Assembly (NCBI RefSeq): GCF_001676055.1
Contig: NZ_LZEX01000006.1
Coordinates: forward strand, 1 to 64,000
DNA length: 64,000 nt
Direction of reading: 5' to 3'
Origin: Morganella psychrotolerans
Lineage (GTDB): Bacteria; Pseudomonadota; Gammaproteobacteria; Enterobacterales; Enterobacteriaceae
Shown here: positions 1 through 12,523 of the stretch, piece by piece
Layout: every line of letters begins with the position of its first letter
How positions within the stretch are numbered: position 1 is the first letter of the stretch
Notes under the pieces: model-generated
What the model saw: only the letters and a program-made list of their open reading frames with translations
Told to the model about the DNA's origin: nothing
Databases searched by the model: none
Translations under genes and position numbers: made by a program

Positions 1-405
1 CGGTTATGACCGATAAGCCTGCCTGAGTTAATTCCTGAGCGCAGGTCTTTTTCTCGGTCATCACCAGCCCTTTTTTGCGAAAAGCTCCTTCATAGCATGA
101 TTTTCCAGACTAACTTCCGCAAACAACCGCTTAAGCCTGGTATTTTCATCCTCAAGTTCTTTAAGCCTTTTAATATCAGCCGCTTCCATACCGCCATATT
201 TTGATTTCCAGTTATAATATGTGGCGTTACTGATCCCGTTCTGACGGCAAATTTCGTCGACCTTCATACCAGAGTCAGCCAGCTTTAAAATACTGACGAT
301 CTGCGTTTCGGTAAAACGTGCTTTTTTCATTATGACCTCTGCTGTTTTCAGGGCAGAAAATCTAATTATAGTTGTTTCATTTTAGGGGAAGTGGACAGAT
401 CGACA
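1..405 (-). mobile_element. IS3-family insertion sequence, partial (runs off the window start). orfA is at 61-330, the A6G slippery heptamer for -1 frameshifting lies at about 73-79, and the start of orfB is at <1-75. The terminal inverted repeat ends near 405 (TG...)
   Basis: OrfA has the HTH/leucine-zipper architecture typical of IS3/IS407-group OrfA proteins (MKKARFTETQIVSIL...YYNWKSKYGG...ENTRLKRL). An AAAAAAG motif sits at the orfA 3' end. The element interrupts an integrase reading frame. Confidence 0.8.
61..330 (-). CDS. IS3 family transposase OrfA (HTH DNA-binding subunit)
   Basis: The 89-aa ORF has strong similarity by eye to IS3/IS407-group OrfA proteins. Confidence 0.85.
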   Translation of the reverse strand: MKKARFTETQIVSILKLADSGMKVDEICRQNGISNATYYNWKSKYGGMEAADIKRLKELEDENTRLKRLFAEVSLENHAMKELFAKKGW

Positions 406-638
406 CCATTAGCTAACAGCTTACGGGCTTCATCTCGGCGTGCCCGGGCATCTGCCAGCGAGACTTCAGGGTATTTCCCCAGCGCCAGCATCTTCTCTTT
501 GCCGCCGAAGCGATAACGAAGTCGCCAGTATTTAGAACCGTTAGGGTGAACCAGCAATACCATACCGTCACTATCAGTGAGCTTATAGGCTTTTGCTTCC
601 GGCTTAGCCGAACGAACTTTCACATCACTCAGAGCCAT
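406..638 (-). pseudogene. P4-type tyrosine integrase, N-terminal ~78-aa fragment truncated by the IS insertion
   Basis: MALSDVKVRSAKPEAKAYKLTDSDG...YWRLRYRFGGKEKMLALGKYPEVSLADARARRDEARKLLANGVD is the canonical P4-integrase arm-binding N-terminus. The frame reads straight into the IS terminal sequence and stops. Confidence 0.8.
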
Positions 639-805
639 GATGAGTATCCTTTCAAGGGTTCTGTGTGGGTACAAACATTATCGAACCGGGATATACCCGC
701 AGATGTACCCACATCAGTAAGTTGATATAGATTGAATCAGGTTGACTTAGGTTGAGTGAAAAAGCGAGGTAAGCCTTGCAGATACTGGATTTTAGATACA
801 AAAAA

Positions 806-836: not shown

Positions 837-857
837 TGGTGCCGAAGGCCGGACTCG
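837..857 (-). repeat. 21-bp tRNA-Leu 3'-end fragment (CGAGTCCGGCCTTCGGCACCA, including the CCA). This is the distal att direct repeat of the leuX island and the proximal att of the next element.
   Basis: It matches the T-arm/acceptor 3' end of tRNA-Leu(CAA). It shares an 18-bp core (17/18 identical) with the intact tRNA at 12414-12431. Confidence 0.75.
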
Positions 858-1139
858 CAAGTGCTGATATCTAATTGATTTAATAGAATATAACTATAAG
901 TCACGTAAAAACGACCAAGATATTGACCTTTCAGATAAAATATTTATGTATCCCTTTTCTATACAAGATAACTCTACTTTCTCTATGATAACTATCTATC
1001 GACACTACAGTTATTTTTTGTAAAAAGTCTTTAAATTAGTTGTTTATACCAAAATAGGGACCTAATTCATTAGACTACTTACAAAAAAAATCAAGATATA
1101 CTATAATAGTATAAGATTATTATATTAAAGGTAGCTAAT

Positions 1140-2629
1140 ATGAACTGGGAACAATTATTATCACCAAAAAGGTTACGTAATCCAACTACAAGCGCTAAAT
1201 TCGATTTAGATTGCAATAGAAATCAATATGAAAGTGATTTTGGTCGAGTAATCTTTAGTCCTGCATTACGCAGAATGCATGATAAAACACAAGTTTTTCC
1301 ATTAAATACAAATGATAATATTCATACAAGGCTGACTCATTCAATGGAAGTTATGTCTGTTGGATATTCACTAGGAATTGGGATCTGCAATCATGCTGAT
1401 TTCTTAAAAAGAATCAGCTCTCTAAAAGGGTCTTTTAATAAGAATATCTATAGAACCATTCCTGTAATATTAAAAAGCAGCTGTTTATTACACGATATTG
1501 GGAATCCCCCTTTTGGTCACTTTGGCGAAACTATAATACAAAATTACTTTCGAGAACTATTTGAAAAAAATAAAACAATATCTAGCGATATGACTTCGGA
1601 AGAAAGAAATGATTTTATAAATTTTGACGGTAATGCACAAGGCTTCCGAGTCATAACTAAGCTCCAAGCCTTAAATGATTTACATGGACTAAATTTAACC
1701 TCAGCAAGTTTAGCCTCATATTTAAAGTATCCAAATACAAATCCTCCAGATAAAAAAAGAATTGAGACAAAGAAAACAGGTGTTTTTTATTCAGAAAAAA
1801 AATACTTAGAGAAAGTATGTAAGGAATGCGGCCTGATAAATGAAGCAGACTTATTTTTGCGTCATCCATTAAGTTATTTAATGGAAGCAGCCGATTCAAT
1901 TTGCTATTCTGTAATTGATATTGAAGATGCTTTCAAAAAAGGAATAATAACTTTAAATGACATTCTAGAAGAGTTTAATAAAACCAAGTGTAAATTTGAA
2001 AAAGAAAACTTTGATTTATCAAACAACTCATTGGAATTAATAAACGAAGCTATTAACTATATAGATAATACAATTAAAAACACAGATGGTGAAAATAAAA
2101 AAAATTGTTGACATTAGAACTTATTTAATTGCTATTCTAGTTGACGACGCACTCAATAACTTCGCTAATAACTTAGATCAAATCGAAGCTGGTAATTATA
2201 ATAAAGAACTACTTGAGGATGGTAGATTAGCACCCTTAACAAAAGCACTACAAAATATAACTTGCTCTATAATCTTCCCATATAGAGAAATTGTTTCTTT
2301 GGAACTCGCTGGAGATTCTATATTAAAAGGAATATTCAATTATTATATTGGTTTGTTATTTTATGAACCTAAAGGGTTCGAAGAAGAAGATACCGAAATT
2401 GAAAAAATGAAAAGGAAGTATGCAAGCAAGGCCGAATCCATGATATCATCAAGCCTTGTACGTGTTGTAAAAAAAAGAACATGCAGAGGAATATGATTGC
2501 AACGAAAATATTCATATCGTTGAATTATCTACATATTTTAAGATAAAGTTAATTGTAGACTATGTTTCTGGAATGACTGATTTATTTGCAATTAATCATT
2601 ATCAAAAATTAAGTGGGCAGAAAATTTAA
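1140..2629 (+). pseudogene. dGTPase-family HD phosphohydrolase (Dgt-like dNTP triphosphohydrolase), read in three frames. It is interrupted twice, each time by a +1 shift inside an A8 run (~2096-2103 and ~2468-2475).
   Basis: The N-terminal part carries FSPALRRMHDKTQVFPL, HTRLTHSMEV, LLHDIGNPPFGHFGE, FDGNAQGFRV and LMEAADSICYSVIDIEDA, near-identical to E. coli Dgt motifs. The downstream frames continue the Dgt alignment through to YVSGMTDLFAINHYQKL (Dgt C-terminus). GC is about 28%. Confidence 0.8.
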
Positions 2630-2634
2630 ATATC

Positions 2635-3368
2635 ATGAAGAAAAACATTATAAAAGCTCATGAAAATGCATTCCATAAATATTTGGTGGATCGATTCCCT
2701 GACTTCACCAGCGAAATTATTGATGTATTATTAGAGGAAAAAAATGATGTTTTTCTTTTTAGTGGAATCATTAGAGATTACTTTTTACATAGAGATACGA
2801 AACTAGACTTCGATGTAAGAGATCTCGATATTGTAGTGCTTGATATTAACAAGTTCCAAAAAACCATTGGAAATAAAATAGAACATAAAAAAAAATTCAT
2901 TTGGTGGTTTGAAATTATATTTCAATGAAATTACTATCGATGTTTGGCAAACAAACTCAACATGGGGATTGAATCCTATAAAGGCGAATAAAATGGATTC
3001 TAATATAATCAACACTCTACCAGAAACGGTTTTTTTTTAATTGCTCATCTATTTTGTTTGACTTTCAAAATAAAACATTTATAGAGGATAATAATAATTA
3101 CTTCCAGTCTTTCATTGAAAGTAAAATATTAGATATCGTTCTAGAAGAAAACCCACTTCCAGAACTATGTATTTTGAATGCCATTTATTATACAAATACA
3201 TATGACTTAAAAATCAGTAAAAAACTAGCTAATTATGTAATGTCTACATTTTCAAAAATAAATAACGAACGATTTATAAAAGCTCAGCACAATCATTTTA
3301 ATAAAGTTATTTATGAAATAAATCAACTACAGAGAGAAATAGACAAATTGCTTACCAAAATAATTTAA
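2635..3368 (+). pseudogene. small Pol-beta superfamily nucleotidyltransferase of the CCA-adding/poly(A)-polymerase head-domain type, ~245 aa when three frames are joined. The frame shifts by +1 at an A9 run (2887-2895) and at a T9 run (3030-3038).
   Basis: The motif SGIIRDYFL...DFDVRDLDIVVLD resembles the GG.VRD...D.DIVT signature of PcnB/Cca head domains. Its start codon lies 5 nt after the dGTPase stop, so the two genes are probably translationally coupled. The call is tentative. Confidence 0.5.
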
Positions 3369-3523: not shown

Positions 3524-3568
3524 ATTCTAATGTTATCCCCCACAGGGGATATCATTGCAATATCCGCC
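3524..3568 (+). promoter_or_regulatory. two perfect HipB operator palindromes TATCC-N8-GGATA (3524-3541 and 3551-3568) just upstream of hipB
   Basis: They match the E. coli hipBA operator consensus exactly and overlap the predicted promoter. Confidence 0.8.
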
Positions 3569-3581
3569 ATAGGGGATAAAA

Positions 3582-3833
3582 ATGAAAGTCACATCACCGG
3601 CCGCACTGGCTAATGCAGTCAGAGATCAGCGAAAAATCAGTAAGATGAGTCAGACTCAGACTGCTGAGCTGATTGGTATCAAACAGACAACCGTTTCTGA
3701 TTTCGAGAACAAACCGGAATCCACTAAGCTGGAAACGTTGTTCAAAATCCTTGCTGCTCTGGACCTAGAGCTTCATGTTACGAAACGAGGCTCAACTCCG
3801 GATGAGAAAAAAACATGGAATAAGGAGTGGTAA
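3582..3833 (+). CDS. hipB: HipB antitoxin (Xre-family HTH)
   Basis: The 83-aa protein has the conserved ELIGIKQTTVSDFENKPE...LETLFKILAALDLEL stretch seen in E. coli HipB. It overlaps or abuts hipA. Confidence 0.9.
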   Translation: MKVTSPAALANAVRDQRKISKMSQTQTAELIGIKQTTVSDFENKPESTKLETLFKILAALDLELHVTKRGSTPDEKKTWNKEW

Positions 3834-3836
3834 GGG

Positions 3837-5147
3837 ATGAAAACACAGGCACTGACAGTCGCCATGAACGGCGATGTGGTAGGCACACTGTATCGGGATG
3901 GTACGGGTGCTATGTCATTCGAATACACGCCGGAATGGCTGTCTGAGCCCGGTTCCCGAGCTATTTCATTATCATTGCCCCTTCAGCACAACAGAATCAG
4001 GGGTAAGGAAGTATTTAATTTCTTCAGTAACCTGCTGCCGGATTCAGAGGTGATTATTGCCAGGATGCAGGCACGGTTCCATGTTGATACAACTCACCCG
4101 TTTGATCTGCTGGCAAGTGTCGGGCGTGACTGCGTGGGCGCAATTCAGTTGTATCCGTCGGGCAGTGACATTCCGTCTGTCATGGAAACACGGGCTGAGC
4201 CGCTGGATGATCATCAGATTGAAACACTGCTTGATGGCTATCAGACGGCACCTTTAGGGATGGAAGAAGGCGCTGATTTCCGGATTTCTTTAGCCGGAGC
4301 TCAGGAAAAAACAGCACTGCTCTGGTATCAGAACTGCTGGCAGCGACCACAAGGCAGTACACCTACCAGTCATATTTTTAAGCTCCCGATTGGGCGGATA
4401 GAACAGAATAATATCGACCTGCGGGAAAGCTGCGAAAATGAATGGCTGTGTTTGCGTATAGCCAAAGCATTTGGATTCCCGGCGGCTGATGCTGAATTAG
4501 CCGTATTTGGTCAGAAAAAGGTACTGATCGTCAGGCGCTTTGATCGGAAGTGGTCAGAGAATGGCTGGCTGATGCGGTTGCCTCAAGAGGATTTTTGCCA
4601 GGCTCTGGGAGTATCTCCGGCACTGAAATATGAGTCACATGGCGGTCCGGGAATAGCGGATGCAATGAATCTGTTGTTGGGCTCCCGCCTTGCCACACAA
4701 GACCGTGAATTATTTTTTAAATCACAGATTCTGTTCTGGATGCTGGCTGCAATTGATGGTCACGGGAAGAATTTCAGCCTGTTTATCGAGCCCGAAACAT
4801 CGTTCCGGATGACACCGCTTTATGATGTGATGTCTGCATTTCCTATTTTTGGCAGCAGGAGTATTCCGCTTAAAAAAGCCAAAATGGCAATGGCGTTATA
4901 CGGGAAAAATAAGCAGTATAATTTTGCGATGATACAGCCCCGGCATTTTATCAGTACCGCCGCACAAGTCGGATTTCCTCAGGATATTGCCCGTAAACTT
5001 ATGCTGGAAATGGCCTCTTACACAGGCACGGTGATCTCCACTGTAGCCACAGAGTTACCGGCTGATTTTCCGCAACACATCAGTGGCGCCATTTTCAAAG
5101 GGTTATCCGGGCAGGCTGCTAAAATCGTTAAATGGGTGCAAAATTAA
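3837..5147 (+). CDS. hipA: HipA serine/threonine-protein kinase toxin
   Basis: The 436-aa protein aligns along its full length with E. coli HipA (FNFFSNLLPDS, GAQEKTALL, RLPQEDFCQA, KYESHGGPGIA, DGHGKNFSLF). Confidence 0.95.
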   Translation: MKTQALTVAMNGDVVGTLYRDGTGAMSFEYTPEWLSEPGSRAISLSLPLQHNRIRGKEVFNFFSNLLPDSEVIIARMQARFHVDTTHPFDLLASVGRDCVGAIQLYPSGSDIPSVMETRAEPLDDHQIETLLDGYQTAPLGMEEGADFRISLAGAQEKTALLWYQNCWQRPQGSTPTSHIFKLPIGRIEQNNIDLRESCENEWLCLRIAKAFGFPAADAELAVFGQKKVLIVRRFDRKWSENGWLMRLPQEDFCQALGVSPALKYESHGGPGIADAMNLLLGSRLATQDRELFFKSQILFWMLAAIDGHGKNFSLFIEPETSFRMTPLYDVMSAFPIFGSRSIPLKKAKMAMALYGKNKQYNFAMIQPRHFISTAAQVGFPQDIARKLMLEMASYTGTVISTVATELPADFPQHISGAIFKGLSGQAAKIVKWVQN

Positions 5148-5254: not shown

Positions 5255-5656
5255 ATGGTTAAAATAGCCCCTATCAAATTACTCCTTTCGTCTGCATTTT
5301 TATTTCTTTTGGCGGGCTATGGGATATATGTTTCAATAACTCATTATCTGGACTATTTTTTGATGAAGGATAAAATCGAATTTTCATTCTTAACCGGCCT
5401 GTTTGGTTTTGGTTCTCCCCTGATTATCTACTTTGTATATTTTGGATTTATTTTATCACGCGATATAAAACCAACAAAAAGAACAGTAAGCACTGCAAAA
5501 TATCTGGCAGGAATAGCAATATTCGGCATGATTTTTAGTTTGTTTTTTTTAGCCTACGTCAACGTTAACCTGACATCAAAAGGTTATCTGACTTGTGACA
5601 AAAAATCCATATTCGCTCCTAATAAATATGTCCTATCAAAAAATATGTGTAAATAA
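5255..5656 (+). CDS. hypothetical small membrane protein (3-4 predicted TM helices), low-GC island cargo
   Basis: The 133-aa ORF has hydrophobic segments and an RBS (GAGGAGAAATAGCC ATG). There is no recognisable family. Confidence 0.4.
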   Translation: MVKIAPIKLLLSSAFLFLLAGYGIYVSITHYLDYFLMKDKIEFSFLTGLFGFGSPLIIYFVYFGFILSRDIKPTKRTVSTAKYLAGIAIFGMIFSLFFLAYVNVNLTSKGYLTCDKKSIFAPNKYVLSKNMCK

Positions 5657-6146
5657 AGAGTACATGGTTTAATTATTAACCACTTGGCAGTAAAGCAATA
5701 TCACCTCCGGATAGTCCGGCTATTATATCCACTATGAATATAGTGCATAAAATATACTGATGAAGAATGAATATAATGAAAACAGGCAGATTGTTCATAT
5801 CGTTATTGATGCTATATCCGAAGATACTACCCTTTAAATAATTTCTCGGTATAGATACAGATTCCATCTGAATACGCTAATTCTGAATTCTTAATACAAA
5901 TCCCCATCCCAAAAAACTCAATCACCCGATCTACTCCGGAAACCTTCAAAACCCCAAATACAGTTGCTGATACAAATCATTAGCCACCTAATTCCGGGTA
6001 TTTCCTGGCTTTGCGGCAACGTTGCCTTTTTTAGCCATTTTCATGAAACGTAAACCCGCTTGAACCCGTCATCCGTTACCCCTACGTTTATACGCGTAAA
6101 ACCTGCTGTCAGTGACAGCCGCCAATGTTTCAATATCAATAAGATA

Positions 6147-6270
6147 TATACCCAACGTCATTCAAGTTGCAGGCAGGCGGCAAGCTCCGACCGCCGGGGA
6201 GCATACTGGTATGTGACCCGGCGGGTATCGTTCCGCCAACGAACCTGCTGTTTGAATGAATAAGGGTATA
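6147..6270. repeat. MITE-like repeat, copy 1 (~124 bp). It has imperfect terminal inverted repeats TATACCCAACGTCATTCAAG...CTGNTGTTTGAATGAATAAGGGTATA.
   Basis: It is about 85% identical to the copy at 47650-47775. A partial 5' end is also present at 41382-41408. Confidence 0.6.
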
Positions 6271-6772
6271 AGTGACCTGCAAGAAACGCCTTCGGGTGGC
6301 CGCAATACTCTTCCGTAATCCGGAAGAAACACCGTTAAAACCGAATCTCAGTGTCTGATATGTGCAGTTGACTGCGCTTTGCTATGCCTCAAGGGCATCT
6401 GCAAGCGCCTGTCCTGCTGCGCAGTGTTTAAGGCGTCACTTTTACGCCGCCGCACAGACTACTCTCAGCCCCTGAGATACACCGCTTACACAATCCGTCA
6501 TGCCTCTGACACCACAGTCAGCGTCTGATAAATCACCGGAAAGGAGACCACAACCACACTGAACCGATACCGGGAACGGGCTGCTCAGCCCGTGGGGATA
6601 TCCGCTCACGGACAGCCAAAGGCGAAAGCTGCACCCGTGCGGTACTGCGTGACGATATGAAAGCAATGGGATTTGATGTCTCCAAAAAGTTTTCCCGCTG
6701 GCTGGATAAGCTGGAAAAAGACAATCTGATCACATTGCGTGGCGAGGAAATTATCCCGCTGCCGTATCAGAC

Positions 6773-6990
6773 CAAAGTGGGGGACTAAACGGGGGAATGG
6801 TGGGGGAAGCCATCCGGAGCACCATAAAAACCGGTGTTTTCCCCACTTCGCAGTTATATATAGAACCTAAGTGGGGGCGATGCTGTAATTTCATAATAAA
6901 CATGCAGTTACGTTAAATTCCAAAAATGAGGTGGGGGAAGAAGTGGCACCCAGCTATGTGGGGGGCGAAGTGGGGGACGTTCTCACGTTT
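6773..6990. repeat. iteron-like array. It has at least 7 copies of RRGTGGGGG(A/C), one of them inverted, within ~220 bp, followed by an AT-rich tract (7080-7400).
   Basis: Copies are AAGTGGGGGA (6774), GGTGGGGGAAG (6799), inverted CCCCACTTCG (6843), AAGTGGGGGCG (6871), GGTGGGGGAAGAAGTGG (6929) and TGTGGGGGGCGAAGTGGGGGAC (6957-6978). The spacing and the neighbouring AT-rich DNA resemble a replication origin. Confidence 0.55.
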
Positions 6991-7558
6991 TTTCCCTGGC
7001 AGGCGCAGTTAAAACCTCGCTGATTTACAGACAACGCGTCAGTGCCGGTCATCTCAAATTTATAGTTGAGCCAGATATTTTTGATTGAAATTTTTCAGTG
7101 CCTGGGTATTTTATATTAGATTCGTAACGTAGCCGTACTAATCACCATGGATGAGATAATATTGATCGATACCATTTTTTTTTATTTATAAGCGCATTGA
7201 TTTTCTGGCAATTATTGTTTTTTCTCTGCTTGCACTTTGGCTTTCATCCATTTCATCAGGACGAATTTTAAGGCTTGCATTATTTTTGTTAGCGATACTA
7301 ATTATTACCCCTTATATTTTTGCCGCTGCTTATGTATTACTTATAATGTCCGTAAGCCTGATGTTTGCATATAACTAAAAATATACACACATCAATATTG
7401 CGCTTCTGATAGTTTATCTGCCGCTCTACCGCATCCCGTAACCACATAGCTACTTAGTCGTGCTGTATCCAATCTATCTACCCACACTAACAAATTTGCG
7501 CTCAGTCAGGTACCTGACAAAAACGATCACATCCGAAGGTTGTTTTTTATGCATGCAT

Positions 7559-7599
7559 TTGACGATTTATAAATCATGATTTACTATAAACGTAAATCA
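7559..7599 (+). promoter_or_regulatory. sigma70-like promoter (TTGACG-17-TACTAT) overlapped by a perfect 8-bp inverted repeat TGATTTAC-N7-GTAAATCA. This is a probable autoregulatory operator of the Xre-type antitoxin gene.
   Basis: Sequence inspection; it sits about 40 bp upstream of the ATG at 7637. Confidence 0.45.
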
Positions 7600-7636
7600 C
7601 CCCGCTTTGTCACATGCGGAAAAATGGGAGGATCGT

Positions 7637-8278
7637 ATGCATACGCACAGTGCTGAAAGAGAAAGAAAAAAACCGGCTGTTTCATTTCATGCAAATGAGG
7701 TGCTGGCAAGCCGCGTCAGTCATCTTGTTTCATCCCTTTTTGCTGATTTTGACGATAAATCTCTGGTATCTGAAATCATGGTACTGGAAGACCTTGAGTT
7801 GCTGGTTTACGTTGTAAATGCTTATCTGCAAAAGAAAACGCGGATGAATGATCGCGAAATGGAGATGTTCAAAGCCAGAATTCAGGCTACAGTCAGATTT
7901 TATCAGAAGCTGGATAAGCTGGGCGGTACTGTAAAAGCGAAAGAGGTCAGTGAGTTGCTGGGAGTGACACGGCAAACCGTTAATAATCATGTTAACAAAG
8001 GCAAGCTGATTGCAGTACGTCGTGGCGGTGATTATCTGTTCCCTGTCTTTCAGTTTAAGGGGTCAGAAATGCTCCCTCATCTGGACGATATTCTGCTGTG
8101 TCTGCCGCCGGAAACGGATGCAACGGCACGGGTTTCATTCCTGACCAACCCGGTTCGAGTTGATAATAAAAATCCTGTAAAAACACCGCTTGAGATCCTC
8201 AGTGACAATCCTTCCGATGAAAAAATAGCACTGTTACGCCGCGAGGCTACACTTTTCGCCAATCAGATGGCATCATAA
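7637..8278 (+). CDS. Xre/MbcA/ParS-like antitoxin with an HTH plus a C-terminal DUF2384 toxin-binding domain, and an unusually long N-terminal region
   Basis: The HTH is VSELLGVTRQTVNNHVNKGKLIAVRRGGDYLFP. The C-terminal FLTNPVRVDNKNPVKTPLEILSDNPSDEKIALLRREATLFA matches the DUF2384 consensus. The ORF-track start at 7607 uses TTG; the ATG at 7637 has a GGGAGGA RBS. Confidence 0.7.
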   Translation: MHTHSAERERKKPAVSFHANEVLASRVSHLVSSLFADFDDKSLVSEIMVLEDLELLVYVVNAYLQKKTRMNDREMEMFKARIQATVRFYQKLDKLGGTVKAKEVSELLGVTRQTVNNHVNKGKLIAVRRGGDYLFPVFQFKGSEMLPHLDDILLCLPPETDATARVSFLTNPVRVDNKNPVKTPLEILSDNPSDEKIALLRREATLFANQMAS

Positions 8279-8320
8279 AAGGGTTCACCGGCCCAGACAG
8301 ACCGGTGAACCATAACAGCA

Positions 8321-8968
8321 TTAAAGCGTCACATCGAAGTGCAGTATTTTCACCAGCATCTCCTCTGCCGTGATGTCCTTATAAGGCCAGCCGACAGGCA
8401 GAAACTGATGCTCTGTATACTTACTGAGTGATTCACACGCCAGGGTTTTAAACAACTTTCCCTCTTCCGGTTCAAACACTGCGAGGCACATCCCCGCAAG
8501 ATAGTGGCGGCTTGCATAACGGATACCATGGAAATCCCGCTCCGGATCATTTGCCAGACAACCCGTGATAGCCTGCGTCAGTGTGTAGTCAACACCGGTC
8601 AGTTGATCCGCTGTCAAATGCAACATAGACGCAAGAGTCGCCATATCAACCAATCGCAGCGGGAATACCGGATGCAACGTGTACATCTGAGCAATCTCCA
8701 GACTGCTGCCGGATATCGCAAAATGCCCGCGACCATGGTGATACATCCTGCCATAACTTTCTGCCAGTGCTGTCAGGCTGTTCTCTGCGAAATAGCATAC
8801 CCCGGTATTACCGGACAGATCGTTATAGCGCCCCATATCATCCGGTTTTGTTGGTTTCCCGTAATGTTCCGCTGACGGATAGTGTTTTCCCTGAAAGCGC
8901 TTCACATCCAGATCAAAACCTAAAACAGGTAATTTCCCATTATGGCAAAGCTGGGTCAGTTGTTCCAA
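8321..8968 (-). CDS. RES-domain toxin (NAD+-targeting Res/MbcT/ParT family)
   Basis: The protein carries GRYNDLSGNTGVCYFAENSLTALAE and FHGIRYASRH motifs with the conserved R, E and S positions. It is convergent with the DUF2384 gene, 42 bp apart. Confidence 0.75.
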   Translation of the reverse strand: MEQLTQLCHNGKLPVLGFDLDVKRFQGKHYPSAEHYGKPTKPDDMGRYNDLSGNTGVCYFAENSLTALAESYGRMYHHGRGHFAISGSSLEIAQMYTLHPVFPLRLVDMATLASMLHLTADQLTGVDYTLTQAITGCLANDPERDFHGIRYASRHYLAGMCLAVFEPEEGKLFKTLACESLSKYTEHQFLPVGWPYKDITAEEMLVKILHFDVTL

Positions 8969-9209
8969 AACGACGAGATATCTTCCATCACAAATAATTC
9001 CTATATATTTAATATCCTTACTAAATAACGAATGATAGCGATATGCTTCACCCTTCCTGAAAGTTCAGTTCATATTTCTGTATGTGAACTGCCGATCCTG
9101 CCCATAAGCAGGAGCGGCAATCGTTGCACATTTGTTAAATCAGGTTAAGGTTTTTATTGTTATTCTTTGAATTGGATATGAAAAATAGTCTGAACAGAGT
9201 CAAAACTAA

Positions 9210-9243
9210 AAGATGATATACAGTACCGGCCATCTAAAAACAG
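9210..9243 (-). terminator. hairpin with a perfect 11-bp stem (ACAGTACCGGC...GCCGGTACTGT) immediately 3' of the integrase
   Basis: Stem-loop followed by a T-rich tract on the minus strand. Confidence 0.45.
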
Positions 9244-9261
9244 CCGGTACTGTGTTAAATA

Positions 9262-10521
9262 TTATCCGATCTCAAACTCATACGGCACCACAAACTCCCG
9301 GCTGACTGCATCCAGGTAATCACCCCACCATTGCATTATCAGTTTTCGTTCCACAATGTGTTCGGCTTTGTGAATATAGGCGGCGCGGACGGCATTGCGC
9401 TCCTGGTGGCTCATCTGCCGCTCTATCGCATCCCGTGACCATTTTCCTGATTCAATCAGTGCGCTGCACGCCATGGTGCGAAAACCATGACCGCACAGCT
9501 CCTTAGCAGTGTCGTATCCCATCGTCCGCAGGGCATTGTTCACCGTGTTCTCACTCATCGGTTTTATCAGGCTATGGTCGCCCGGGAAGAGCAGCTCGCC
9601 CTCTCCGCTTATTGTCCTGATTTCTGCCAGAACGGCCAGTGTCTGGCGCGACAGCGGCACAATATGCTCTGACTGCATTTTTGCACCACGATAGGAGAAT
9701 TTCACACCGGGAATCGGCGTACGCTCTGCCGGAATTATCCAGATGGCGCGTTCTGTGTCGAATTCAGACCAGCGGGCAAGACGGATTTCACTGGAGCGCG
9801 AAAACGTCAGCAGCGTAAACTGTATCGCCAGTTTGGTTAACCGGCGGCCGTTGTAATAATCCAGCTTTGTCAGCAGCTCCGGCAGCCGTTCCAGCCGCAG
9901 CGCCGGGCGGTGGGTCACACGCGGCGGCATCAGTGCTCCGGCCATGTCCTTCGCAGGATTGCGATCAATCACGCCGCACTGAACCGCATATCCCATGATA
10001 TCCGTGATCCGCTGCTTCAGCCGCGAGGCCAGCTCCAGACGATCATTCGCCTCTACAATCCGCAGCGGTACCAGTAAATCTTTGGTTTTCAGTTCCGCAA
10101 CATGCCGCTGACCTATCGCCGGGAGAATATGCTTTTCCATATCGCGCCAGATACGGTTAGCGTGCGTCTCTGACCAGCGCCGCCGTCTGAGCATCTGCTG
10201 CGACCATTCTCGCGCCATTTTCTCAAAGGTATTCAGCGCATCCTCTTCGGCTTCCTTCTCCGCGATACGCTTCTGCTTCGGGTGAATACCATCCAGTATC
10301 ATCAGACGGGCTTCATCGCGTTTATCACGGGCGCGTGACAGTGAAACCAGCGGATATGCGCCGAATGCTATCCGGCTCTCTTTGCCGTTGTATGCAAACT
10401 TAAAATACCAGCGCTTTGTACCAACCGGATTTACCTGAAGATAAAGGCCGTACTCGTCGGCCAGTTTGTACATCTTTTTACCAGGTTTTGCGTTCCTTGC
10501 TGCCATGTCACTTAATGCCAT
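9262..10521 (-). CDS. int: P4-type tyrosine integrase/recombinase, full length
   Basis: The 419-aa protein has a DUF4102 arm-binding N-terminus (MALSDMAARNAKPGKKMYKLAD...) and a catalytic C-terminal domain. It lies 1.9 kb from tRNA-Leu on the same strand. Confidence 0.95.
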   Translation of the reverse strand: MALSDMAARNAKPGKKMYKLADEYGLYLQVNPVGTKRWYFKFAYNGKESRIAFGAYPLVSLSRARDKRDEARLMILDGIHPKQKRIAEKEAEEDALNTFEKMAREWSQQMLRRRRWSETHANRIWRDMEKHILPAIGQRHVAELKTKDLLVPLRIVEANDRLELASRLKQRITDIMGYAVQCGVIDRNPAKDMAGALMPPRVTHRPALRLERLPELLTKLDYYNGRRLTKLAIQFTLLTFSRSSEIRLARWSEFDTERAIWIIPAERTPIPGVKFSYRGAKMQSEHIVPLSRQTLAVLAEIRTISGEGELLFPGDHSLIKPMSENTVNNALRTMGYDTAKELCGHGFRTMACSALIESGKWSRDAIERQMSHQERNAVRAAYIHKAEHIVERKLIMQWWGDYLDAVSREFVVPYEFEIG

Positions 10522-10971
10522 AAGTCCGGGTCACTCCTTTGTCGAATTGGTTTATCGCATCGTGACTTTTACGTACTCCGGGAACAACAAAGAAATATAT
10601 TCACAAAGTTGAACATTTTAATAAGCAGGTGACATAGGGGTTCATCACTGTGTGGACAACCAAAAACAGTGCAGAATAACGAAACAGGCTGAATTGCCGG
10701 TTGGTATAATTTGAGGGGAAAATTTAATTCGTTGTTTTTATTTGAAAAGATAAATAGTGATATTTTTTATCGGGGTATACAGGTGGCGGTATATATCTAG
10801 GTGAGATATACATGTGATTTATTGGTACTGACTTACCCCTCACTGCATTACTCTGCCATGAGGGTATAACGAGTGAACTACGATAAGAGTAATGAAAATA
10901 TGAAGTTTATTTAAAATATTTCTTTTATGAACATCACCGGAACCACCTGATACACAGGTGGCCAGCTAATA

Positions 10972-11707
10972 TTACCAATTTATATTAAAGATGTATCCTT
11001 CCAGCACAAGGGTAATAATTACAATAAATAATACAACCATTCCGCCAACTCCGAATGTCTTAAATCTACATTTCTGCCCACACTTAAATATAAAAAAGAA
11101 GAAACCAGTTTGGTTTTTATTCGCTAATGCATAGGCTAACTCAATAAAAGAAGATATGTGTATTAAAATAATGGAAATACTTATCAATATTGCAGATGAT
11201 ATTATAGAAAGAGAAAGATTCTTCCCATGTCCATTTAATTTCGCCCAGAATTTACTGGCAGAATCAACCTCCCTGGCAACATTAAGAATATCCTGAGGAA
11301 TTAGCCCATTGACTTTTCCATTTAATGAAAAAATTATCACTGCCAATACACCCATTAATAACCATCTTATAACATCAACACGTTCGGCTTCCTTGTTAGT
11401 AAATAAAATTAATAATCCAATAAATGCTAATACGGGTGACGTTACAGCTCCCCATGTTAATACAGAATATACTTGTTCATAATAACTAAAAAAAAAGCCA
11501 TGCTAAGAGACTGACTATGAATATTACTGCAACGGCACTGCCTACAACGATAGGATTGCCATCACTATCTGTTGATTTTTTGTGATTATTATTGATGGTT
11601 TTGTTAATTACTTGGGTGTTTTGAATATTGTAGCCACCACTGTTACTCTGAACAACGTTAATATTATCTGTGTTATTCTTGATGTTTATATCTGCAAATC
11701 TTCCCAT
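10972..11707 (-). pseudogene. Asn-rich membrane protein of unknown function, given as two ORFs of 73 and 127 aa. The frames fuse into ~245 aa if the A9 run at 11488-11496 were A8.
   Basis: Manual translation shows an open frame linking the two ORFs across the homopolymer. It has an Asn-rich N-terminus and at least 4 hydrophobic helices. Confidence 0.4.
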
Positions 11708-12373
11708 ATTTTTCTATTCCATCTAAGTGGATGACAATAATGAAATACATTTATGCCGTACTAATTATACGAAACACATACCTGTGATGTTACCTTCGAT
11801 ATTAAATAAACACAAAGCATGCCTATTTTTACAAAACAATCAATGAGTTAAAAATAATAAAATGATTAGAACACTAAAAAATCACTCATTAACTACCTTT
11901 ATTAGTAGTCAATCTGGTAACTCATTTTTAGTGAATATAATCTATTAAGGATATCGGAACAATAAATTAAAAGCTCATCAGAGCTAATAATCTAGCTGTA
12001 TATCTTTATGCATCCATGTAACCTGTTTTCTACTCTGAGTTCAATGTCACCAACGCTTCATGCCACTGGTTCCGGATGTTACTTGGCTAGCATGACTATA
12101 TATCCCCAAAGTTTTTAATCCGTATGGACGAAAATATCTAAAAGTAGATGGTTCTTTTTACCTGAATATTTATAACACCAACACCGGGTCAAAAAACCGC
12201 GTCGCAAAGTTGACCCCGTCAAAACCGTTTTTTTGCCCGGATGACGCCCGGACAGCAACAGACCTACCGAAGCGCGTTACACGAACCGGTAATTGGAAAT
12301 TAAAATGTTATTTTACATAAACTTACAAACAAGAAAGGCGGCTAAAAACAGCCGGATAGCGAATTTCAGGCAC

Positions 12374-12396: not shown

Positions 12397-12413
12397 TTGA
12401 TTTCACTTAAGAA

Positions 12414-12495
12414 TGCCGAAGGCCGGAATCGAACCGGCACGCCCTAAAGCGGTTGATTTTGAATCAACTGCGTCTACCAATTCCGCCACTCCGGC
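12414..12495 (-). tRNA. leuX: tRNA-Leu (anticodon CAA), the leuX homologue. Its 3' end is reconstituted from island sequence and no CCA is encoded (the 3' trailer is TTC).
   Basis: It is 82 nt and matches E. coli leuX (GCCGGAGTGGCGGAATTGGTAGACGCAGTTGATTCAAAATCAACC...GTGCCGGTTCGATTCCGGCCTTCGGCA). The anticodon loop is TTCAAAA. Confidence 0.9.
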
Positions 12496-12523
12496 ACTGA
12501 AGTGTGTTCTCGATAACGGCGTT

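What the first reader, a model, noticed from the sequence alone, without database searches (positions are those of the whole stretch)
6507..7400. Vestigial replication module: a short rep-like C-terminal ORF, then at least 7 GTGGGGG iterons and an AT-rich tract
An array of RRGTGGGGG(A/C) repeats, six direct and one inverted, occupies 6773-6990. It begins exactly at the stop codon of a short open frame that ends ...MKAMGFDVSKKFSRWLDKLEKDNLITLRGEEIIPLPYQTKVGD, and it is followed by ~300 bp of A/T-rich DNA. The layout of rep 3' end, then iterons, then an AT-rich DNA-unwinding element is that of a theta-replicon or PICI/satellite origin. The upstream part of the putative rep gene is destroyed: there is a stop at 6507 and no long ORF. 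This looks like the remnant of an integrated plasmid-like or phage-inducible element within the leuX island. Alternatively it could be an array of binding sites for an unidentified regulator.
Basis: seen in the sequence. Interest (0 to 1): 0.5.

Follow-up and report, generated by a model that had tools for sequence, protein, structure and literature searches.

The report
Orphan replication origin of decayed island
This is the leftover replication origin (a cluster of initiator-binding repeats) plus the last 62 codons of the primase-helicase gene of a small mobile island inserted at the leuX tRNA gene of a Morganella; a 3.6-kb deletion removed the rest of the module, so it is a correctly spotted relic of a well-understood kind.

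Summary
Six exact GTGGGGG repeats lie on one strand within 200 bp, out of only seven in the whole window. One imperfect inverted copy and two degenerate copies accompany them. The array starts inside the last codons of a short open frame.

That frame is the final 62 codons, a predicted winged-helix domain, of a 677-aa primase-helicase (Pri-Rep). The gene is intact at the same leuX site in Morganella psychrotolerans DSM 17886 and in relatives from M. morganii, Serratia, Chania, Edaphovirga and Dickeya. In all of them the same iteron layout follows the gene's stop codon. Iteron positions are about 95% conserved while the spacers are about 54% conserved.

E. coli PICI-type and M. morganii capsid-forming PICI elements carry homologous RepA helicases. 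Their origins have the same layout but different iteron words (GTGGGG, GTGCGGC).

The window lacks 3,577 bp present in an intact relative. The missing genes are an MpsA-like recombinase, AlpA, Ash and Pri-Rep codons 1-615. The module was therefore deleted, not eroded by point mutations.

The 300-bp AT-rich tract downstream is variable cargo holding a frameshifted small membrane-protein ORF. It is not the unwinding element. The likely melting sites lie inside the array.

Verdict: an orphan, probably inert origin. It is a new member of a known kind and of low interest.

The parts
6600..6788 (+). 3' stub of the pri-rep gene: codons 616-677 plus the stop codon. It encodes a predicted winged-helix origin-binding domain. 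The called ORF 6657-6788 (43 aa) starts at an internal Met.
   Evidence: tblastn of the L008 Pri-Rep gives 61/62 identity. Identity to the E. coli RepA tail is 52%. The AF2 model has pLDDT 84 with an H-H-H-beta-hairpin topology. Foldseek top hits are all winged-helix DNA-binding domains, but with E>0.5.
6596..6600 (.). Deletion junction at the microhomology GATA(T/A)C. It joins the non-coding DNA that lies upstream of the PF12835 gene to pri-rep codon ~615. The 3,577 bp lost correspond to L015 8265-11841.
6272..6598 (+). Remnant of the non-coding leader that precedes the PF12835-alpA-ash-pri-rep module in intact relatives. It contains a conserved hairpin-dense block (6335-6525), here with a 14-nt loss in the main hairpin. 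It is a candidate oriT or regulatory region (inference only).
   Evidence: 88% identity to L015 7913-8264. 72% identity to Serratia, Chania and Edaphovirga loci. Consensus fold.
6777..6878 (+). Iteron set 1. Direct GTGGGGGA at 6777-6784 and 6800-6807. Half-site CGGGGGA at 6790-6796. Inverted copy at 6840-6848 (TCCCCACTT, one C short). Direct GTGGGGGC at 6871-6878.
6849..6870 (.). 22-bp AT-rich spacer (GC 0.32) between the convergent iteron pair. Its T-TATA core (T98, T100-A103 of A1; in the window TATATA at about 6857-6862) is invariant in all 12 aligned origins, including E. coli. It is a candidate first melting point.
   Evidence: (invariant columns T98, T100-A103)
6879..6930 (.). Central AT-rich spacer (GC 0.30) between the two iteron sets. 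It is the counterpart of the AT-rich melting region described for PICI and SaPI origins.
   Evidence: PMC6092414 Fig. 2a legend; PMC9371898
6931..6977 (+). Iteron set 2. GTGGGGGA at 6931-6938. Degenerate AAGTGGCAC at 6941-6949. GTGGGGGG at 6958-6965 (A>G relative to the intact Morganella copies). GTGGGGGA at 6970-6977.
6978..7051 (+). Distal flank of the origin, conserved only within Morganella. It includes a weak terminator-like hairpin formed by the last iteron (6970-6986) followed by T6.
9262..10521 (-). Intact P4-type tyrosine integrase of the island (419 aa), convergent with the rep stub.
12413..12496 (-). tRNA-Leu(CAA), leuX: the integration site of this island family.
837..858 (+). Partial direct repeat of the tRNA-Leu 3' end (TGGTGCCGAAGGCCGGACTCG). 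It is the probable distal att site and bounds an island of about 11.6 kb.

Best explanation
Region 6600-7051 is the orphaned replication origin (oriV) and the 3' stub of the initiator gene of a small mobile island integrated at leuX.

In the intact element a 677-aa Pri-Rep protein combines four parts: a zinc-ribbon, a Toprim primase, a RepA/DnaB-like AAA_25 hexameric helicase, and a C-terminal winged helix. By analogy with SaPI and PICI Rep proteins, the winged helix would bind the GTGGGGGA iterons that begin within its own last codons. Helicase would then load on either side of an internal AT-rich segment, melt it, and prime replication of the excised circle. No DnaA box is needed.

In this genome a single illegitimate deletion of 3,577 bp occurred at a 4-5-bp microhomology. 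It removed the MpsA-like PF12835 gene, alpA, ash and Pri-Rep codons 1-615. The stub cannot make a helicase, and the origin has no initiator in cis. It is most likely inert and drifting.

Shown here: the homology, the deletion, the conservation of the iterons, and the co-variation of iteron word with Rep tail. Inferred: iteron binding by the winged helix, the melting site, and present-day inactivity.
For: The repeats are clustered far beyond chance. The stub equals residues 616-677 of the intact Pri-Rep of M. psychrotolerans DSM 17886. That protein has Pfam domains Zn_Ribbon_Prim, Toprim_3 and AAA_25. Its helicase is related to RSF1010 RepA, PDB 1G8Y.

Six of seven genomes found with an iteron pattern carry a full rep gene directly upstream of the array. 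All examined are at tRNA-Leu(CAA).

Alignment of 12 origins shows iteron columns 53-55/56 identical between the window and distant genera, against 77-80/145 for the spacers.

Homologous RepA helicases of an E. coli PICI-type element and an M. morganii cf-PICI have the same origin layout. Their iteron words are AAAGTGGGG and AAGTGCGGC, so the word co-varies with the Rep tail.

The deletion is mapped to the nucleotide against L015. No other Pri-Rep sequence exists in the window.

The published PICI and SaPI origin organisation and the functional rep-ori test match this layout (PMC6092414; PMC9371898). The stub folds as a winged helix.
Against: No experiment shows that this Pri-Rep binds GTGGGGGA or that this array ever fired. 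The Foldseek matches to winged-helix domains are not statistically significant (E 0.5-1.6).

Inactivity is inferred from the window only. A cognate Pri-Rep could be encoded elsewhere in the genome.

Signs of relaxed constraint are weak. The window shows one lost C in the inverted iteron and one A>G change, but the intact L015 also shows homopolymer-length differences.

The class of the parent element, phage satellite or conjugatively mobilised island, is unresolved.
Confidence: 0.85

Rival explanations
1. The origin is not dead. It remains a working cis site that is fired in trans by a sibling island or another Pri-Rep with the same winged-helix specificity. This would cause in-situ amplification of the leuX island and its defence cargo. 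If AlpA is also supplied, the defective island would replicate and hitch-hike after excision.
For: All six direct iterons and both AT-rich spacers are still present. The island keeps an intact integrase and both att repeats. The truncated allele persists in at least two further samples, L002 and L003, and a third lineage (L001) also retains the array. Islands occur in tandem at leuX.
Against: No cognate Pri-Rep exists in the 64-kb window. The Morganella cf-PICI RepA uses a different iteron word, GTGCGGC. The inverted iteron has lost a base and iteron 5 is mutated. Retention may simply reflect a recent deletion.
Confidence: 0.1
2. The array is a set of operator sites for a host or island transcription factor that regulates neighbouring genes.
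For: The repeats are short, G-rich, and occur in both direct and inverted orientation, which can also describe operators. The window holds HTH proteins nearby (7607-8278).
Against: In every relative the array sits exactly at the rep stop codon, whatever gene follows it. The neighbouring cargo differs between elements while the array is constant. The iteron word changes together with the Rep C-terminal domain.
Confidence: 0.02
3. It is the remnant of an integrated iteron-type theta plasmid, with a Rep_3/RepA_C initiator and a DnaA-dependent oriV, rather than of a chromosomal island or satellite.
For: The layout of iterons plus AT-rich DNA downstream of rep also occurs in plasmids and in SGI1. 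Partial RepA-helicase homologues exist on some plasmids at 52-59% identity over half the protein.
Against: The initiator is a primase-helicase, not a Rep_3/RepA_C protein. There is no DnaA box with <=1 mismatch and no IHF site in 6600-7450. No plasmid record covers >=80% of Pri-Rep, and the DNA has no plasmid match. All relatives examined lie next to a P4-type integrase at tRNA-Leu.
Confidence: 0.02
4. It is a chance G-rich low-complexity patch.
For: The whole-window count of GTGGGGG (7) is not above the shuffle expectation of 5.5.
Against: Six of the seven copies lie within 200 bp on one strand (P about 5e-16). The positions are conserved across six genera.
Confidence: 0.005

Closest known systems
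Gram-negative PICI replication module (pri-rep + ori of EcCICFT073 and other E. coli PICIs; Fillol-Salom et al. 2018, PMC6092414)
   Same: The origin lies immediately 3' of the initiator gene. Two sets of short iterons flank an AT-rich region. The initiator is a (primase-)helicase with allelic variants that have matching iterons. AlpA is encoded upstream in intact relatives. An E. coli PICI-type element (L007) has a RepA whose tail is 52% identical to the stub, with the same origin layout.
   Different: Here only the last 62 codons survive. In the intact Morganella and Serratia relatives the rep module is transcribed towards the integrase, not unidirectionally away from it. No packaging or capsid-remodelling genes were seen. 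A PF12835 MpsA-like gene heads the module.
Capsid-forming PICI (cf-PICI) RepA-ori, e.g. M. morganii L018/L019
   Same: It has a homologous AAA_25 helicase plus C-terminal domain (56% identity in the tail). The origin architecture is identical: direct x3, inverted, TATA, direct, AT-rich, direct xN.
   Different: The cf-PICI RepA lacks the primase half (458 aa). Its iteron word is GTGCGGC. The element carries capsid, portal, protease, connector and TerS/TerL genes that the leuX island lacks.
SaPI Rep / PriRep5 self-loading helicases and SaPI ori (PMC9371898)
   Same: The logic is the same. A C-terminal winged helix reads penta- to octanucleotide iterons located just after the rep ORF. An AT-rich centre is present. 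Iterons of opposite orientation are present. No loader or DnaA is needed.
   Different: SaPI Reps are SF3/MCM-like AAA+ helicases unrelated in sequence. Here the motor is RepA/DnaB-like (AAA_25, related to RSF1010 RepA).
Satellite phage P4 alpha protein with ori/crr
   Same: The integration site (leuX) and the integrase type are the same. The N-terminal zinc-ribbon and Toprim primase half of Pri-Rep is 36% identical to P4 alpha residues ~1-324. AlpA(Vis)- and Ash-family genes are upstream. From general knowledge, the P4 alpha C-terminus binds iterons.
   Different: The helicase and DNA-binding halves are not homologous to P4 alpha. From general knowledge, the P4 iteron is TGTTCACC and is split between ori and crr. 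No sid, delta or psu genes were found.
SGI1-type integrative mobilizable elements (rep-oriV plus mpsA/oriT; PMC7433901, PMC6414798)
   Same: It is an island with its own iteron oriV directly downstream of rep, used transiently after excision. A PF12835 tyrosine-recombinase-like gene, the signature used for MpsA-type relaxases (PMC10484663), is preceded by a GC-rich region dense in inverted repeats.
   Different: The SGI1 Rep is a RepA_C initiator with 17-bp iterons and a DnaA box, and SGI1 integrates at trmE. No relaxase activity or oriT has been shown for the Morganella family, so the resemblance is an inference.

Membership tests
PICI/SaPI-type Rep-ori replication module | The origin lies immediately 3' of the initiator (rep / pri-rep) gene. 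| tested here: met
   The first iteron overlaps the last four codons of the rep stub. The same holds in 10 related loci.
PICI/SaPI-type Rep-ori replication module | Two sets of short iterons flank an AT-rich region, and at least one iteron is in opposite orientation. | tested here: met
   Set 1 spans 6777-6878 and includes the inverted copy at 6840-6848. The AT-rich spacer 6879-6930 has GC 0.30. Set 2 spans 6931-6977.
PICI/SaPI-type Rep-ori replication module | An intact initiator-helicase gene is present in cis. | tested here: not met
   Only codons 616-677 remain, and there is no other Pri-Rep or RepA match in the window.
PICI/SaPI-type Rep-ori replication module | The rep-ori segment drives autonomous replication, and Rep binds its iterons specifically. 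| not testable with these tools
   This needs plasmid-maintenance and EMSA assays. Only the co-variation of iteron word and Rep tail was seen.
Gram-negative PICI (whole element) | int, alpA and pri-rep are co-localised. | tested here: not met
   In the window int is present while alpA and pri-rep are deleted. The intact relatives L015, L017 and L020 have all three.
Gram-negative PICI (whole element) | Transcription is unidirectional and rightward from int, and the element carries packaging or capsid-morphogenesis genes (terS, rpp, ppi-like). | tested here: not met
   The rep module converges on int. No packaging or capsid Pfam hit was found in the window island or in L015, L017 or L020.
Gram-negative PICI (whole element) | The element is induced and packaged by a helper phage. 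| not testable with these tools
   This requires experiment.
P4-like satellite (SatelliteFinder core: int, alpA, epsilon, alpha, sid, delta, psu; PMC10085698) | At least five of the seven core genes are present, including sid, delta and psu. | tested here: not met
   The window has only int. The relatives have int, alpA, an Ash-family gene and a protein sharing only the primase half of alpha. No sid, delta or psu domains were found.
Iteron-type theta plasmid replicon | A Rep_3/RepA_C-type initiator is present, with DnaA box(es) in oriV. | tested here: not met
   The initiator is a primase-helicase. There is no DnaA box with <=1 mismatch in 6600-7450.
SGI1-like integrative mobilizable element | An MpsA-type relaxase with an adjacent oriT is present, and the element is mobilised by a conjugative helper. 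| tested here: inconclusive
   A PF12835 gene heads the module in intact relatives. A conserved hairpin-dense upstream block is also present. Plasmid homologues are annotated only as 'integrase domain-containing protein'. The gene is deleted in the window.

The most novel reading that the evidence does not exclude
The parent of this relic may be an undescribed class of leuX island in Morganellaceae, Yersiniaceae and Pectobacteriaceae. It would combine a PICI-type Pri-Rep/iteron replicon and AlpA/Ash with an MpsA-like tyrosine-recombinase 'relaxase' and a candidate oriT. Such an element would be a replicative, defence-carrying island able to hitch on conjugative elements rather than, or as well as, phages.

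The window copy keeps only the two cis sites (candidate oriT remnant and oriV), the integrase and the att repeats. It could then survive as a cis-only hitcher, replicated and moved in trans by intact siblings.
Probability: 0.12. Interest if true: 0.5.

Novelty: new member of a known kind. Interest (0 to 1): 0.2.

Why it matters
The finding explains an odd-looking G-rich repeat cluster as the footprint of a decayed mobile element. It also dates the decay to one mapped deletion.

It documents that one origin architecture is shared by minimal leuX islands, E. coli PICI-type elements and Morganella cf-PICIs. Three different iteron words are matched to the initiator's winged-helix tail. This gives a convenient natural series for studying Rep-iteron specificity.

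For genome annotation, the GTGGGGGA array after a '...KVGD' or '...NVGE' stop codon is a usable marker of this island family and of its defective derivatives.

It does not open a new biological question by itself.

Tried and rejected
- **DNA searches of 6000-7600.** Megablast against complete E. coli genomes found nothing, so the window is not E. coli despite the leuX context. blastn against the phage collection found nothing. blastn against plasmids gave only a 100-bp ERIC-like hit in Moellerella.
- **IMG/VR.** The iteron-pattern scan found nothing.
- **E. coli RepA tblastn.** It found no other rep fragments in the window, so there is no scattered pseudogene.
- **PDB sequence search with Pri-Rep.** It found only the RSF1010 RepA helicase and nothing for the C-terminal domain. 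Foldseek of the stub model gave only non-significant winged-helix hits, and P4 alpha's origin-binding domain was not among the top 50.
- **Rfam on 5500-7700.** The only hit was a sub-threshold STAXI/ERIC-like match at 6104-6329, unrelated to the iterons.
- **Promoter and terminator scan.** Counts were at chance level.
- **DnaA-box and IHF consensus searches.** Both were negative.
- **NCBIfam.** It gave no informative names for Pri-Rep, AlpA, Ash or the PF12835 protein.
- **Relaxed selection on iterons in truncated copies.** The idea is only weakly supported, because an intact copy also shows homopolymer changes.
- **A Salmonella 11-kb 'plasmid' record carrying the PF12835 gene.** It turned out to be a linear draft contig, not evidence of an episome.
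- **Literature search for PF12835/Integrase_1.** It added nothing beyond PMC10484663.

Full report
**Observation**

Region 6773-6990 contains six exact GTGGGGG words on the + strand, at 6777, 6800, 6871, 6931, 6958 and 6970. The whole 64-kb window has only one other copy on either strand, at 3537. With 5.47 copies expected per window from dinucleotide shuffles, a given 200-bp stretch of one strand expects 0.0085, so six copies has P about 5e-16.

There are three further partial copies. An inverted copy at 6840-6848 reads TCCCCACTT, one C short of the TCCCCCAC found in all relatives. A half-site CGGGGGA lies at 6790-6796. A degenerate AAGTGGCAC lies at 6941-6949. The first iteron is read as codons K-V-G-D of ORF 6657-6788, just before its TAA.

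**What the short ORF is**

The frame upstream of the repeats has homologues annotated 'DNA primase' and 'helicase, partial [E. coli]'. Tracing those into complete E. coli genomes leads to a 471-aa 'helicase RepA family protein'. It sits in a PICI-type element with this gene order: int, HTH regulator, Icd-like, RepA, SSB, major capsid, decoration, TerS. Its last 55 residues are 52% identical to window 6594-6761. No other part of that protein matches anywhere in the window.

A pattern built from three iterons was scanned over one genome per species. It returned seven loci, from Morganella psychrotolerans, two M. morganii, two Serratia, Chania and Edaphovirga. Six of them carry a full-length rep gene directly upstream of the array.

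The closest is M. psychrotolerans DSM 17886 (L008), 94-96% identical to the window across 6596-10809. It encodes a 677-aa protein with Zn_Ribbon_Prim, Toprim_3 and AAA_25 domains. Window 6600-6785 matches residues 616-677 at 61/62. The helicase part is related to RSF1010 RepA. The primase half is 36% identical to P4 alpha residues 1-324, but the remainder is not related to P4 alpha.

An AlphaFold model of the 62-residue stub has pLDDT 84 and an H-H-H-beta-hairpin topology. All top Foldseek matches are winged-helix DNA-binding domains (DtxR/IdeR, CRP, RovA, histone H1, MCM WH). Their E-values are not significant for so small a domain.

**How the module was lost**

The comparison is with an intact relative, L015, a Morganella metagenome contig that has the same HipBA cargo and the same AmpC/RtcB chromosomal flank. 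Window 6272-6610 aligns to L015 7913-8264 and window 6596-7397 aligns to L015 11842-12644.

The 3,577 bp between those two blocks are absent from the window. They hold a PF12835 'Integrase_1' gene, alpA, a Phage_ASH gene and Pri-Rep codons 1-~615. The junction lies at a GATA(T/A)C microhomology at 6596-6600.

Two further samples (L002, L003) share this junction and carry a second deletion of window 6074-6599. In a third lineage (L001) the gene is cut by the end of an IS3-type transposase gene. These look like independent or successive decay steps, and all of them still retain the iteron array.

**The origin**

Twelve origins from six genera were aligned. They share one architecture:
- stop codon and iteron 1, then a half-site, then iteron 2;
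- a spacer of about 32 bp, then an inverted iteron;
- a 22-bp spacer whose T-TATA core is invariant in all 12, then iteron 3;
- an AT-rich spacer of about 50 bp (GC 0.30 in the window);
- iteron 4, a degenerate copy, then iterons 5 and 6.

Between the window and the Serratia, Chania and Edaphovirga loci, 53-54 of 56 iteron columns are identical, against 77-80 of 145 spacer columns. Dickeya has the same array, with the first iteron overlapping its N-V-G-E stop.

E. coli uses the same layout with AAAGTGGGG(A). A canonical M. morganii cf-PICI has capsid, protease, portal, connector, HNH, TerS and TerL genes. It also uses the same layout, with AAGTGCGGCA. The iteron word therefore changes together with the Rep C-terminal domain, as expected if that domain reads the iterons.

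[quoted passage not shown] It was shown functionally for EcCICFT073 (PMC6092414). It also matches SaPI Reps, whose C-terminal winged helix binds iterons just after the rep ORF and which self-load without a loader (PMC9371898). No DnaA box (<=1 mismatch) or IHF consensus is present in 6600-7450. That fits a helicase-type initiator rather than a DnaA-dependent theta plasmid.

**The AT-rich tract at 7052-7400**

This tract is not part of the origin. M. morganii homology ends at 7051 and resumes at window 9221. The Serratia-group homology ends near 6977.

The tract contains a 76-codon small hydrophobic ORF (7147-7378). It is intact in L015 and L016, where the homopolymer is T8. It is frameshifted in the window and in L008, where it is T9 at 7175-7183. 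The plausible unwinding elements are the two internal AT-rich spacers, 6849-6870 and 6879-6930.

**Mechanism and present state**

In the intact element, Pri-Rep presumably binds the iterons through its winged helix. It would assemble helicase on both sides of the AT-rich centre, melt it, and prime synthesis on the excised circle.

In the window nothing can do this in cis. The stub lacks the primase and the helicase, and its only start codon is an internal Met. No other Pri-Rep is present in 64 kb. The Morganella cf-PICI RepA recognises a different word.

I therefore consider the array an orphan, most likely inert origin (confidence 0.85 for identity, somewhat less for inactivity). Trans-activation by a sibling island encoded elsewhere in the genome cannot be excluded (about 0.1).

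**Element class**

All relatives sit beside a P4-type integrase at tRNA-Leu(CAA). They carry variable cargo rich in toxin-antitoxin and defence genes. The window island is bounded by the tRNA and a 21-nt repeat of its 3' end at 837-858, giving about 11.6 kb.

The intact elements have int, alpA and pri-rep. They lack packaging or capsid genes and sid/delta/psu, and the rep module converges on int. By the SatelliteFinder criteria (PMC10085698) they would be at best 'Type C PICI-like', not P4-like.

The first gene of the module is a PF12835 protein, the signature used for MpsA-type atypical relaxases (PMC10484663; PMC6414798). It is preceded by a conserved, GC-rich, hairpin-dense non-coding block (window 6335-6525). 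This resembles the SGI1 arrangement of oriT next to mpsA, and SGI1 also has a rep-iteron oriV (PMC7433901). Whether the family is moved by phages, by conjugative elements, or by both is unresolved. This is the only part with some novelty potential.

**Verdict**

It is a new member of a known kind, with low interest (0.2).

Noticed in passing
window 6144-6255 (Rfam hit 6104-6329): An ERIC-like repeat is inserted here and is absent from the otherwise collinear L015. It gives a sub-threshold STAXI RNA match (33.9 bits against a gathering score of 40.5) and 77% identity to an unannotated stretch of a Moellerella plasmid.
   Followed up: partly
window 6335-6525; L015 7976-8178; L017 7961-8165: This is a conserved, GC-rich, hairpin-dense non-coding block lying 250-430 bp upstream of the PF12835 (MpsA-like) gene in intact relatives. 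The consensus fold has 53 pairs, 4 of them with compensatory changes. The 13-bp main hairpin has lost 14 nt in the window. It could be an oriT or a regulatory RNA and has no Rfam match.
   Followed up: partly
window 7147-7378: A 76-codon small hydrophobic (membrane-like) ORF lies here. It is intact in L015 and L016 (T8) but frameshifted in the window and in M. psychrotolerans L008 (T9 run at 7175-7183). The cause could be phase variation, a pseudogene or a homopolymer sequencing error. The ORF accounts for most of the 'AT-rich tract'.
   Followed up: partly
window 7607-8278 (+) and 8321-8968 (-): An HTH_17/Xre-like protein (223 aa) and a RES-domain protein (215 aa) are arranged convergently rather than as the usual Xre-RES operon. 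This cargo is present in L008 but absent from M. morganii and L015.
   Followed up: no
window 366-674 (-) and 837-858: Just beyond the distal att repeat lies a 102-aa ORF with the Arm-DNA-bind_3 domain of another P4-type integrase. This suggests a second island in tandem at leuX, as in Serratia oryzae L017, which has two integrases.
   Followed up: partly
window 1140-2111, 3582-5147, 5255-5656: The island cargo includes a dGTPase-type anti-phage defence gene (PADLOC 3e-56, HD domain), a HipB/HipA toxin-antitoxin pair and a DUF1240 membrane protein. Two ORFs have no family match (2086-2496, 3054-3368).
   Followed up: partly
window 10797-12227: About 1.4 kb of low-GC DNA lies between the integrase promoter region and tRNA-Leu. 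It is replaced by about 126 bp in M. morganii L010 and L012. It holds an ORF (10972-11355, 127 aa) with no Pfam or PADLOC hit.
   Followed up: no
L018 7378-7590, L019 7378-7590: The M. morganii cf-PICI origin has the same architecture as the window array but is built from AAGTGCGGCA iterons. This is a natural specificity variant of the same Rep-ori system.
   Followed up: yes
L001 1-110: In GCA_046712565.1 the homologous pri-rep is interrupted by the 3' end of an IS3-family transposase gene (...DYIEMFYNCRRRHGSSNQMPPAEYENQYYQRLESV*). This is an independent inactivation that also leaves the iteron array intact.
   Followed up: partly
window 6970-6995: The last iteron forms a 7-bp hairpin (GTGGGGGACGTTCTCAC) followed by T6, which looks like an intrinsic terminator. 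It is conserved in Morganella only, and the scan count is at chance level.
   Followed up: no
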